From IMG/VR virus record IMGVR_UViG_3300050500_000608: 64,000 bases of DNA, one strand, 5' to 3'. Positions 62,897-63,461 of this stretch are shown here, piece by piece. The translations under genes were made by a program, and so were the position numbers. Position 1 is the stretch's first letter, and each line of letters starts with the position of its first letter. Origin of the DNA: a virus. The notes below the pieces were generated by a model. It was not told the DNA's origin. It worked only from the letters and a program-made list of their open reading frames with translations, and made no database searches.

Positions 62897-63461
62897 AAAG
62901 CCTTAGCTTAAGACTAACAGTGAAATCGGACCCAGACGATCAGATTTAGAGTTGCGTCAAAAGCTTAAGGTTTATAGTGAATGGATGAAGCCAGGTAGTT
63001 CGGACTATCCTGATAACGCAGGTTCGAATCCTGCCCCCCTCTCATAGGAAGCTGAACTATTTGGCCCGGCAAAACTTTCGGTTTCTACCTGAAGTTGTTT
63101 TTAGAGCAGTCGGTAATTTTCTCATAAGTCTTAGGAAGCCGGGCCAAAATTTCTTGCATATATGCTTCGGCGCAACAGGGACATGGTCCTGTGTTAGCCC
63201 TTTCTTATATGCATAGGGCCGGGAGAGCTCTCTACGCGTAAGCAATCTCTTAGCAGGTGAGTACAATGCGTGCTCAGCCTGCTCTCTGAGGGGGTAGTAT
63301 AGTTGGTAGTACATTGGGCGTCAAGCCTCAGCATAAGGCTACCTGAACGCGTCATCCAGTTTACCAAGCAGTGAACTCATAATTCACAGTAGACTTGAAA
63401 TCTACTCGCTTAAACACAAGGGAACTTCAGACAGGATACGATCTGGAGTTCCCATTTTTTT
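62897..63461 (+). ncRNA. Large structured RNA with a circularly permuted tRNA core and twin anticodon-loop mimics
   Basis: T-arm at 63018-63034 and acceptor 3' strand at 63035-63041 lie upstream of the acceptor 5' strand (63288-63294) and D-arm (63297-63312). Many nested helices. Confidence 0.8.
63420..63461 (+). terminator. Intrinsic terminator closing the ncRNA
   Basis: GGGAACTTCAGA/TCTGGAGTTCCC 12-bp stem plus T7. Confidence 0.8.

What the first reader, a model, noticed from the sequence alone, without database searches (positions are those of the whole stretch)
62977..63364. Circularly permuted tRNA core inside a large phage ncRNA
The 3' half comes first: anticodon-stem strand CCTGA (63009-13), variable TAAC, T-arm GCAGG-TTCGAAT-CCTGC (63018-34), acceptor strand CCCCCTC (63035-41), discriminator T. 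The 5' half lies 245 nt downstream: GAGGGGG (63288-94, a perfect 7-bp partner), TA, D-arm GTAT-AGTTGGTA-GTAC, then A and TTGGG (63314-18). The anticodon loop is replaced by a long nested helix: CAGGTAG/CTACCTG, TGGATGA/TCATCCA, GTGAA/TTTAC. The insert is itself folded (63060-70 with 63138-48; 63155-62 with 63206-13; GCAGG-TGAGTAC/GTGCTCA-CCTGC). This topology is known for YrlA Y RNAs and two-piece tmRNAs, but this RNA has a full D-arm, no G3-U70 pair, no tag ORF and a large insert. U73 plus a side hairpin with GCA centred in a 7-nt loop (63324-63340) are CysRS-like cues, though the loop is non-canonical. tRNA scanners would likely miss it. It may be an undescribed RNA class.
Basis: partly seen in the sequence, partly recalled or inferred. 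Interest (0 to 1): 0.92.

Follow-up and report, generated by a model that had tools for sequence, protein, structure and literature searches.

The report
Phage tRNA-mimic RNA with giant insert
The window holds a phage non-coding RNA whose core is a tRNA look-alike with its two halves in swapped order and a 246-base structured insert; it belongs to an apparently unmodelled RNA family that travels with the phage gene DUF7873 and is not an ordinary tRNA, tmRNA or recognised Y RNA.

Summary
At 63009-63318 (+ strand) a T-arm and acceptor 3' strand precede a 246-nt insert, followed by a perfect 7-bp acceptor partner, a D-arm and a 5-bp anticodon-stem analogue. Nested helices close the structure. The RNA is longer than reported, about 62946-63461, and ends in a conserved hairpin plus a U-tract.

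Homologues in syntenic gaps of related phage contigs keep every helix through compensatory changes. The same layout, with short acceptor loops of 15-29 nt, lies just downstream of DUF7873 genes in 18 of 26 IMG/VR phage loci.

The topology matches YrlA-type Y RNAs. However, Rfam YrlA does not hit the window, the Ro-binding CGAA motif is not conserved, and TROVE/Rsr is absent from the window and from 17 of 18 related phage records. The proposed CysRS cues are not supported, because the GCA loop is not conserved across the family.

Best reading: a new, DUF7873-associated variant of permuted tRNA-mimic ncRNA, with lineage-specific expansions. These are a conserved insert hairpin and anticodon-arm-like hairpins. 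Its function is inferred only: engaging tRNA-recognising proteins in tRNA-centred phage-host conflict, possibly after RNase P cleavage.

The parts
62946..62954 (+). Leader motif TTAGAGTTG (family consensus TTAGTGTTG), about 70 nt upstream of the T-arm
   Evidence: Present at the same relative position in the window clade and in most IMG/VR DUF7873 loci. It is not a repeated promoter motif in the window: 3 matches against 1.2 expected.
62977..62991 (+). P1 5' strand (GTGAA-TGGATGA-A-GC); pairs with 63349-63364
   Evidence: MFE fold. RNAalifold on four close members keeps the pairs with compensatory changes (columns 39-53 with 417-433).
62992..62998 (+). P2 5' strand CAGGTAG; pairs with CTACCTG 63339-63345
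   Evidence: Relatives show CAGATA/TATCTG in L015 and CAGGTATA/TATACCTG in L014.
62999..63008 (+). Junction linker TTCGGACTAT (A/U-rich and unpaired in distant members)
   Evidence: Comparison of seven members.
63009..63013 (+). Anticodon-stem analogue, 3'-side strand CCTGA; pairs with TTGGG 63314-18
   Evidence: All six full members pair perfectly, with compensatory changes: CCCGA/TCGGG, CTCGA/TCGAG, TCCGA/TCGGA, TCTGA/TCAGA.
63014..63017 (+). Variable-loop analogue TAAC
   Evidence: 4-5 nt in all members (AGGTC in L015).
63018..63034 (+). T-arm GCAGG-TTCGAAT-CCTGC
   Evidence: fragment match to the tmRNA T-arm. Across 20 family members the T-stem cells are 100% paired with covariation.
63035..63043 (+). 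Acceptor 3' strand CCCCCTC, then discriminator-position T and a conserved C
   Evidence: The 7-bp stem is perfect in all members with different sequences. 'TC' follows in all 7 window-clade members and in most IMG/VR members.
63044..63287 (+). Acceptor-loop insert with three folded subdomains: 63060-63148, 63155-63213 and 63253-63282
   Evidence: Subdomain 1 is shared with L006, L007, L019 and L024. Subdomains 2 and 3 are lineage-specific.
63075..63094 (+). Conserved insert hairpin with loop TTTCTA (63082-87)
   Evidence: GTTTCTAC/ATTTCTAT is present in all seven window-clade members, with different flanking stems.
63288..63294 (+). Acceptor 5' strand GAGGGGG
63295..63313 (+). TA, then D-arm GTAT-AGTTGGTA-GTAC, then A
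   Evidence: D-stem pairs kept.
63314..63318 (+). Anticodon-stem analogue, 5'-side strand TTGGG
   Evidence: See 63009-13.
63324..63340 (+). Side hairpin AGCCT-CAGCATA-AGGCT
   Evidence: The hairpin with an A-R-M-A-U loop is kept in the clade, and AGCATAA is also seen in L068 and L069. GCA itself is not conserved.
63339..63364 (+). P2 3' strand, conserved 3-nt A-rich bulge AAC (63346-48), and P1 3' strand
   Evidence: CTGAA(C/T/A) is conserved in all members, with the bulge as AAC, AAT or AAA.
63371..63405 (+). Two anticodon-arm-like hairpins: GTGAA-CTCATAA-TTCAC and GTAGA-CTTGAAA-TCTAC (5 bp plus 7-nt loops of the form CT-NNN-AA)
   Evidence: The second is conserved in relatives with a changing middle triplet: CGT in L006 and L019, TGT in L007, TTT in L014 and L015.
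63420..63461 (+). Terminal 12-bp hairpin with conserved loop CAGGATACG (63432-40) followed by T7
   Evidence: Stems differ in every member while the loop is invariant. The motif occurs only here on the + strand of the window. IMG/VR relatives carry GAAGGATATTGA in the same place.
60630..61424 (+). DUF7873 (PF25283) gene, the protein that accompanies this RNA family
   Evidence: Pfam 117.6 bits. A permuted tRNA-like element follows DUF7873 in 18 of 26 IMG/VR loci, and in L014 and L015.

Best explanation
The locus encodes one structured non-coding RNA of roughly 520 nt (about 62946-63461, + strand) in a crAss-like-related phage. Its core is a circularly permuted tRNA mimic. The order is: anticodon-stem strand, variable loop, T-arm, 7-bp acceptor stem closed by an insert, D-arm, and the other anticodon-stem strand. 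This core stacks on a two-part closing helix (P2, an A-rich 3-nt bulge, P1). It belongs to a family that accompanies the phage gene DUF7873 and usually has a 15-29-nt acceptor loop. The window's lineage enlarged that loop to 62-246 nt around a conserved hairpin with a UUUCUA loop, and added anticodon-arm-like hairpins before a terminal hairpin with a conserved AGGAUA-containing loop. Shown: the anatomy, its conservation and covariation, the DUF7873 linkage, and the absence of Rsr. Inferred: the body folds into a tRNA-like L shape and is engaged by proteins that recognise tRNA shape (processing or modification enzymes, or tRNA-targeting host nucleases). In that role it would act with DUF7873 as a platform or decoy in tRNA-centred phage-host conflict. 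More speculative: RNase P cuts 5' of G63288, and the 3' strand is trimmed near T63042/C63043 and CCA-completed. That would give a two-piece mimic and release the insert, as in M. smegmatis YrlA.
For: Anatomy. Syntenic homologues with different insert lengths: L006 102 nt, L007 194, L019 187, L024 108, L014 79, L015 62. Their acceptor stems are all perfect but differ in sequence: GAGGGGG, AGGGAGG, GGGGGGA, GGGGAGG, GAGGAGA, GGGGGCA, GGCGAAG. RNAalifold on L006, L014 and L015, without the window, recovers P2, the AC analogue, T, acceptor, D, an ASL hairpin and the terminal hairpin; 27 of 56 pairs carry compensatory changes. With the window included, 35 of 106 pairs do. Family breadth: 18 of 26 IMG/VR DUF7873 loci carry the element 100-350 nt downstream on the same strand, against about 0.3 chance hits expected for that amount of DNA. 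A covariance model built only from 10 IMG/VR members finds L015 at 76 bits (E 1e-13) and L014 at 48 bits. Across 20 members the T and acceptor stems are 95.8% paired, against 64% in shuffles; the covariation score is 0.85 against 0.20 (0 of 500 shuffles), and slid controls give 0.19 or less. Context is RNA or nucleotide conflict: cREC_REC next door (predicted 2',3'-cyclic-phosphate/cADPR phosphoesterase linked to RNA ligases, PMC7824862), Tad2-like in relatives, and phage tRNA genes just downstream. Precedent for processing: a YrlA with a 7-bp acceptor is cut by RNase P in vitro and CCA-added in vivo (PMC4201824).
Against: There are no expression or processing data. The model built from short-loop members does not detect the window copy itself; it finds only a T-arm fragment at 12 bits. 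The link to the wider family therefore runs through L014, L015 and L006. The DUF7873 fold gives no functional clue. An eighth pair between position 73 and position -1 forms in 12 of 20 members, which is not ideal for RNase P. If the insert were merely excised, its conserved hairpin would need a reason of its own. The host is unknown.
Confidence: 0.6

Rival explanations
1. It is a genuine Y RNA of the YrlA subclass. The closing stem-bulge-stem would bind host (or phage) Ro60/Rsr, and the tRNA-like module would tether a partner such as PNPase.
For: The module order is the same as the Rfam YrlA consensus. Two relatives give sub-threshold YrlA hits: L069 at 34 bits and L001 at 47-53 bits. The window has GATGAAG where YrlA has GNCGAAN0-1G, with the C-G pair replaced by U-A. 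A stem-bulge-stem is present. Phage Y-like RNAs are known (PMC4201824; PMC12135203).
Against: YrlA does not hit the window, L006, L007 or L015 even at E up to 1-10. The CGAA motif is not conserved: GATGAGG in L007, GACAGAG in L006, and absent in L019, L014 and L015. No ORF of 300 aa or more in the window is TROVE. Precomputed Pfam hits list no TROVE for the genes called on the contig beyond the window end, up to its end, apart from one gene cut by the contig end. TROVE is found in only 1 of 18 DUF7873 phage records and in 0 of 9 records at least 90% complete. L024 keeps the tRNA-like core and insert hairpin but lacks P1 and P2.
Confidence: 0.2
2. It is a decoy or sponge for host tRNA-targeting defence nucleases. 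The tRNA-shaped body and the separate anticodon-arm-like hairpins (CAU, UGA here; CGU, UGU, UUU in relatives) would soak up anticodon nucleases or acceptor-end toxins.
For: There are canonical 5-bp stems with 7-nt loops of the form CU-NNN-AA, and the triplet varies between phages. The neighbourhood carries anti-defence and RNA-repair genes. The phage carries its own tRNA-Ser(UGA) and tRNA-Met(CAU), matching the two loops in the window.
Against: The match between loop triplets and phage tRNAs fails in L006 and L007, whose loops are Thr-type with no tRNA-Thr seen. These hairpins are absent from the short-loop IMG/VR members. There is no experimental link.
Confidence: 0.15
3. It is an aminoacylatable two-piece tRNA or tmRNA-like molecule, as the first reader suggested with cysteine identity.
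For: A 7-bp acceptor, an unpaired U at position 73 followed by a conserved C, and the precedent of CCA addition to a YrlA.
Against: There is no G3-U70 pair. ARAGORN and the Rfam tmRNA models give nothing beyond a T-arm fragment. The GCA loop is not conserved. Acceptor sequences differ in every member, so no acceptor identity set is kept. No anticodon loop sits on the anticodon-stem analogue.
Confidence: 0.04
4. It is a processing or stability element rather than a trans-acting RNA. In this reading a tRNA-like punctuation mark and terminator at the 3' end of the DUF7873 message, or at the head of the tRNA cluster, directs RNase P/E cuts.
For: In most phages the element lies 100-350 nt after DUF7873 on the same strand and directly before tRNA genes.
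Against: In the window clade, four or five genes separate it from DUF7873, and the tRNAs lie beyond the AAA gene. The conserved leader, closing helix, side hairpin and terminal loop go beyond what a cleavage mark needs.
Confidence: 0.08

Closest known systems
YrlA-type bacterial/phage Y RNAs (Rfam RF02553; Chen et al. 2014, PMC4201824)
   Same: Identical module order: closing stem, anticodon-stem analogue, variable loop, T-arm, acceptor hairpin, D-arm, and back to the stem. The T and D loops are canonical. M. smegmatis YrlA also has a 7-bp acceptor and is cut by RNase P and CCA-added. Phage examples exist.
   Different: There is no Rfam hit for the window. The GNCGAA Ro-binding motif is not conserved, and the bulge is a 3-nt A-rich bulge on the 3' strand. 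The RNA is not next to Rsr and travels with DUF7873 instead. The acceptor loop carries a 62-246-nt structured domain with a conserved hairpin. Extra conserved modules are present: a leader, a side hairpin, anticodon-arm-like hairpins, and a terminal AGGAUA loop.
Two-piece (permuted) tmRNA
   Same: The gene order places the T-arm and acceptor 3' strand before the acceptor 5' strand, with an intervening segment between them that is removed in tmRNA.
   Different: No G3-U70, no tag reading frame, no pseudoknot set, and a full D-arm. ARAGORN and Rfam do not call it.
Permuted tRNA genes of red and green algae (from my own knowledge)
   Same: The 3' half is encoded upstream of the 5' half.
   Different: Those mature into normal tRNAs with an anticodon loop via a circular intermediate. 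Here the anticodon loop is replaced by a long closing helix and the ends lie there.
Thermus phage phiLo Yrl1/Yrl2 (PMC12135203)
   Same: Phage-encoded stem-bulge-stem ncRNAs thought to hijack host RNA machinery.
   Different: They are defined by a CGAA bulge and adjacency to a phage Ro60. Neither feature is found here.

Membership tests
YrlA / Y RNA (RF02553) | Permuted tRNA-like module (T-arm, acceptor hairpin, D-arm) inside a closing stem | tested here: met
   compare the Rfam consensus.
YrlA / Y RNA (RF02553) | Score at or above the Rfam gathering threshold (69 bits) | tested here: not met
   No YrlA match in the window at E<=10, none in L006 or L007 at E<=1, and none in L015 at E<=10. The best family relative, L069, scores 34 bits.
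YrlA / Y RNA (RF02553) | Conserved Ro-binding motif GNCGAAN0-1G (CGAA) on the 5' strand of the closing stem | tested here: not met
   The window has GATGAAG (one mismatch), but L007 has GATGAGG, L006 has GACAGAG, and L019, L014 and L015 have no such motif.
YrlA / Y RNA (RF02553) | Encoded next to, or together with, a Ro60/Rsr (TROVE) gene | tested here: not met
   No TROVE among window ORFs of 300 aa or more. Precomputed Pfam hits list none for the genes called on the contig beyond the window end, except one gene cut by the contig end that carries no annotation. Found in 1 of 18 related phage records. Host Rsr could not be examined.
YrlA / Y RNA (RF02553) | Physical binding to Ro60/Rsr | not testable with these tools
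   Needs EMSA or co-immunoprecipitation.
Two-piece tmRNA | G3-U70 alanine identity pair, tag ORF, pseudoknots, detection by ARAGORN or Rfam | tested here: not met
   The third acceptor pair is G-C. ARAGORN finds nothing. Only a 17-nt T-arm fragment matches beta_tmRNA, at 8.4 bits.
Canonical or permuted tRNA gene | 7-nt anticodon loop on the anticodon stem; recognisable by tRNA models | tested here: not met
   The anticodon-stem analogue opens into a junction, a side hairpin and P2. ARAGORN finds none.
DUF7873-associated permuted tRNA-like RNA (family defined here) | T-arm, 7-bp acceptor closed by a loop or insert, D-arm, AC analogue, P2 / A-rich bulge / P1, and a terminal hairpin with an AGGAUA loop, near a DUF7873 gene | tested here: met
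   All features are present in the window. DUF7873 lies at 60630-61424. The features are shared with L006, L007, L019, L014 and L015 and with the IMG/VR loci. The model R1, built from short-loop members, does not itself span the window's 246-nt insert.

The most novel reading that the evidence does not exclude
DUF7873 plus this RNA form a previously unrecognised, widespread phage ribonucleoprotein built on a permuted tRNA mimic and independent of Ro60. In the window's lineage the RNA would be cut at the acceptor stem into a CCA-bearing two-piece tRNA mimic plus a released structured insert RNA. Its conserved terminal loop would base-pair with a dedicated phage tRNA-Ser-like RNA, so that the particle acts directly on tRNA supply or on tRNA-targeting defence.
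Probability: 0.25. Interest if true: 0.85.

Novelty: new variant of a known kind. Interest (0 to 1): 0.66.

Why it matters
Permuted tRNA mimics (YrlA Y RNAs) have so far been defined by their partnership with Ro60/Rsr. Here the same architecture recurs in many large phages without Rsr, tied instead to an uncharacterised virus-specific protein (DUF7873) and to tRNA clusters. It also carries conserved modules that no current Rfam model describes. This gives DUF7873 its first functional lead, as a possible RNA partner. It shows that the acceptor loop of such mimics can host large conserved domains. It also offers a concrete, testable candidate for RNA-based manipulation of tRNA metabolism or tRNA-targeting immunity by phages. 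In practical terms, these loci are currently annotated as empty intergenic gaps.

Tried and rejected
- **Rfam searches.** Searches at gathering and at permissive E-values on the window gave nothing relevant.
- **blastn.** The RNA against GenBank phages gave no match.
- **Exact T-arm plus acceptor 24-mer in IMG/VR.** One hit, L001. This is a different phage with two tandem short-loop YrlA-like RNAs in a tRNA cluster. No DUF7873 or TROVE was found in that half-complete record.
- **Motif scans.** Scans for the side hairpin or the P2 motif in IMG/VR and the JGI metagenomes gave only chance hits, in coding or otherwise unrelated sequence (L008-L013). The combined motif gave zero hits in IMG/VR. It gave 30 hits in species genomes, about the number I estimate for chance; none has a hairpin or a U-tract.
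- **Flanking-protein searches.** The search for related loci with the downstream protein (viral contigs) and with the AAA alignment (metagenome contigs) found nothing.
- **AAA relatives.** Relatives at about 60% identity have no upstream gap.
- **Alternative local pairing.** I tested the P2 5' strand pairing with the upstream CCTGA, and TTGGG with the downstream CCTGA. I rejected it because it breaks in L006, L007 and L014, while the long-range pairing holds in all members.
- **Leader as a phage promoter.** Rejected, because it is not repeated in the window.
- **DUF7873 structure.** The model has pLDDT 80 but gives no informative PDB match by Foldseek or VIA-align. The protein atlas returns only DUF7873 clusters.
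- **Literature.** No paper mentions DUF7873, and searches for permuted tRNA or decoy RNAs in phages found no description of this family.
- **Model R1.** It does not span the window's insert.
- **Not attempted.** I did not supply a hand-written structure string for a fuller covariance model.

Full report
**Observation.**
- An unconstrained fold of 62960-63380 returns the described architecture: a long closing helix, the T-arm, a 7-bp acceptor stem spanning a 246-nt folded insert, and a D-arm (-143 kcal/mol, z = -3.2).
- The minus strand folds as well by energy. Strand is therefore assigned from the T-loop and D-loop motifs, G-U pairs, the downstream U-tract, and the orientation of homologues.
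- ARAGORN finds no tRNA or tmRNA in the 64-kb window.
- Rfam 15 gives no hit at gathering thresholds. At E up to 10 it gives only a 17-nt T-arm fragment.
- A simple scanner (T-arm, perfect 7-bp acceptor within 450 nt, D-arm) finds one site in the window, against 0.09 per shuffled window.

**Setting.** The window is a phage.
- It carries a portal, large terminase and major head protein and a crAss-type tail ring protein.
- Its only cultured relative for the head protein is a cyanophage at 25% identity.
- The window's record is an 81-kb ENA metagenome contig.
- The RNA lies in a 601-nt non-coding gap (62883-63483). Upstream is a small conserved ORF; downstream is an AAA ATPase gene.
- Further upstream are DUF7873 (PF25283) and a cREC_REC protein. 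Close relatives also carry a Tad2-like gene there.
- cREC is a predicted 2',3'-cyclic-phosphate or cADPR phosphoesterase linked to RNA ligases (PMC7824862).
- Real tRNA genes (Ser-UGA, Asp, Met, Trp) follow the AAA gene just beyond the window.

**Homologues and structure.** Contigs carrying relatives of DUF7873 or of the AAA protein hold the same RNA in the same gap, with different insert lengths.

| Locus | Insert length (nt) |
|---|---|
| L006 | 102 |
| L007 | 194 |
| L019 | 187 |
| L024 (truncated form) | 108 |
| L014 | 79 |
| L015 | 62 |

- The acceptor stem is a perfect 7 bp in every member but differs in sequence.
- The 5-bp anticodon-stem analogue is perfect everywhere, with compensatory changes.
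- P2 covaries (CAGATA/TATCTG in L015).
- A 3-nt A-rich bulge follows CUG on the 3' strand in all members.
- RNAalifold on L006, L014 and L015 alone recovers P2, the anticodon-stem analogue, T, acceptor, D, one anticodon-arm-like hairpin and the terminal hairpin. Of 56 pairs, 27 carry compensatory changes.
- With the window and its three closest relatives, 35 of 106 pairs do.
- An alternative local pairing of the repeated YCUGA segments breaks in three members and is rejected.

**The RNA is larger than reported.**
- A leader motif (TTAGAGTTG, 62946-54) is conserved.
- Two hairpins with 5-bp stems and 7-nt CU-NNN-AA loops follow (63371-63405; triplets CAU and UGA). One of them is conserved in relatives with CGU, UGU or UUU.
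- A 12-bp terminal hairpin has stems that differ in every member while its loop, CAGGAUACG, is invariant. It is followed by a U-tract (63420-63461).
- That loop motif occurs nowhere else on the + strand of the window.
- Every member's insert holds a hairpin with the loop U-UUCU-A on covarying stems, so the insert is a conserved domain and not junk. The second and third subdomains in the window are lineage-specific.

**A wider family.**
- An alignment of DUF7873 proteins retrieved 26 IMG/VR phage loci, on contigs of roughly 14-520 kb, most above 100 kb.
- In 18 of them the scanner finds a permuted tRNA-like element 100-350 nt downstream of DUF7873 on the same strand. The acceptor loop is mostly 15-29 nt, and about 0.3 chance hits are expected.
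- These elements share the leader, the N73-C dinucleotide, the side hairpin, P2/bulge/P1, and a terminal hairpin with loop GAAGGAUAUUGA. Most are followed directly by an unusually long or class-II-like tRNA-like sequence, and often by further tRNA genes.
- A covariance model built from ten of them finds L015 (76 bits, E 1e-13) and L014 (48 bits), along with further IMG/VR members.
- Across 20 aligned members, T and acceptor stems are 95.8% paired against 64% in shuffles. The covariation score is 0.85 against 0.20, and slid controls stay at or below 0.19.
- The model does not bridge the window's 246-nt insert. The window's membership therefore rests on direct homology to L006, L007 and L019, and on motifs shared with L014 and L015.

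**Comparison with known families.**
- *YrlA.* The topology is that of YrlA Y RNAs (Rfam consensus; PMC4201824), which already include a D-arm and, in M. smegmatis, a 7-bp acceptor that is cut by RNase P and CCA-added. Membership nevertheless fails on three tested points:
  - No YrlA score for the window, L006, L007 or L015. The best relative scores 34 bits against a threshold of 69.
  - The CGAA Ro-binding motif is not conserved.
  - TROVE/Rsr is absent from the window's ORFs. No TROVE hit is on record for the genes called beyond the window end. It is absent from 17 of 18 related phage records, including all 9 that are at least 90% complete.
- *L024.* This member keeps the tRNA-like core and insert hairpin but has no P1 or P2 at all.
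- *tmRNA.* Features are absent.
- *CysRS idea.* It fails because the GCA loop and the acceptor sequence are not conserved.

**Mechanism.**
- Shown: a conserved, covarying, strand-specific RNA with a tRNA-shaped core, linked to DUF7873 and to tRNA and RNA-conflict genes.
- Inferred: recognition by tRNA-shape-reading proteins, and a role as a platform or decoy in tRNA-centred conflict.
- Speculative: RNase P cleavage at 63288 and 3' trimming with CCA completion at 63042/43, giving a two-piece mimic.
- DUF7873 gave no structural or functional lead, and no paper mentions it.

**Unexplained.**
- In the window clade, the terminal loop is complementary over 8-9 nt to the unusual T-loop region (GAUCGUAUCCU) of the phage tRNA-Ser(UGA).
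- In L065, L068 and L069 it is complementary over 8-11 nt to a stretch of a long tRNA gene downstream.
- Against control windows, this is significant in only 3 of the 16 loci tested when the target is the DNA immediately downstream.

**Verdict.** This is a real feature. It is a new, DUF7873-associated variant of the permuted tRNA-mimic ncRNA kind, and the window copy is the most expanded member seen.

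Noticed in passing
window 63432-63441; L003:14668-14676; L006:5929; L007:6858; L014:7275; L065:4693; L068:5416; L069:4619: The conserved terminal-loop sequence is complementary (8-11 nt) to a stretch of a phage tRNA-Ser-like gene. 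In the window clade the stretch is the T-loop and T-stem; in other clades it is the anticodon-stem/variable-arm junction. Against control windows this is significant in only 3 of 16 loci when restricted to the adjacent 200 nt.
   Followed up: partly
L003:14593-14687 (own contig, just beyond the window end); also L006:5852-5947, L007:6784-6877: The phage tRNA-Ser(UGA) has an odd T-loop, AUCGUAU (A54/U58 instead of T54/A58), and a C at position 33 of the anticodon loop. This form is conserved across the clade.
   Followed up: no
L001:2331-2604 (minus strand), IMGVR_UViG_3300035158_000384: An unrelated phage contig carries two tandem short-loop YrlA-like RNAs (47 and 53 bits, below the threshold of 69) at the head of an 11-tRNA cluster. 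One of them shares the window's exact 24-nt T-arm plus acceptor strand. No TROVE or DUF7873 was found in the half-complete record.
   Followed up: partly
window 61455-61934 (cREC_REC); relatives L007:3182-3451 (Tad2-like): The genes around the RNA look like an anti-defence / RNA-end-processing islet: cREC phosphoesterase, a Tad2-like sponge in relatives, DUF7873 and an AAA ATPase.
   Followed up: partly
L014:7203-7290; L015:2647-2740: Directly after the RNA's terminator lie tRNA-like sequences with acceptor, D and T arms that ARAGORN does not call. The one in L014 has the same AUCGUAU T-loop.
   Followed up: no
L069:4577-4698; L068:5371-5490; L065:4600-4758: These are unusually long tRNA-like genes (117-159 nt) with very long variable regions. 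By eye, the L069 anticodon loop reads UU-UUA-GG, which would be an ochre-suppressor anticodon.
   Followed up: no
window 62640-62882: This small ORF was not called by the gene callers in the source record. It has a C-terminus conserved in relatives (GRP-x-[FY]T-[RK]-PGSNKK), so it is probably a real small protein.
   Followed up: partly
L007:4700-4790; L019:2215-2300: The second insert subdomain of these relatives contains GGUAGGRGGUGMAAGUCCUUAC, reminiscent of the GGAAAGUCC box of RNase P RNA (a resemblance I recall, not one I tested). The Rfam scan of L007 gave no match there; L019 was not scanned.
   Followed up: no
window 672-10915 (minus strand); 46222-48644: Two giant ORFs (1776 and 1635 aa) have no Pfam hit. 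Two adjacent ~400-aa proteins carry sigma-70 region-4 / HTH domains.
   Followed up: no
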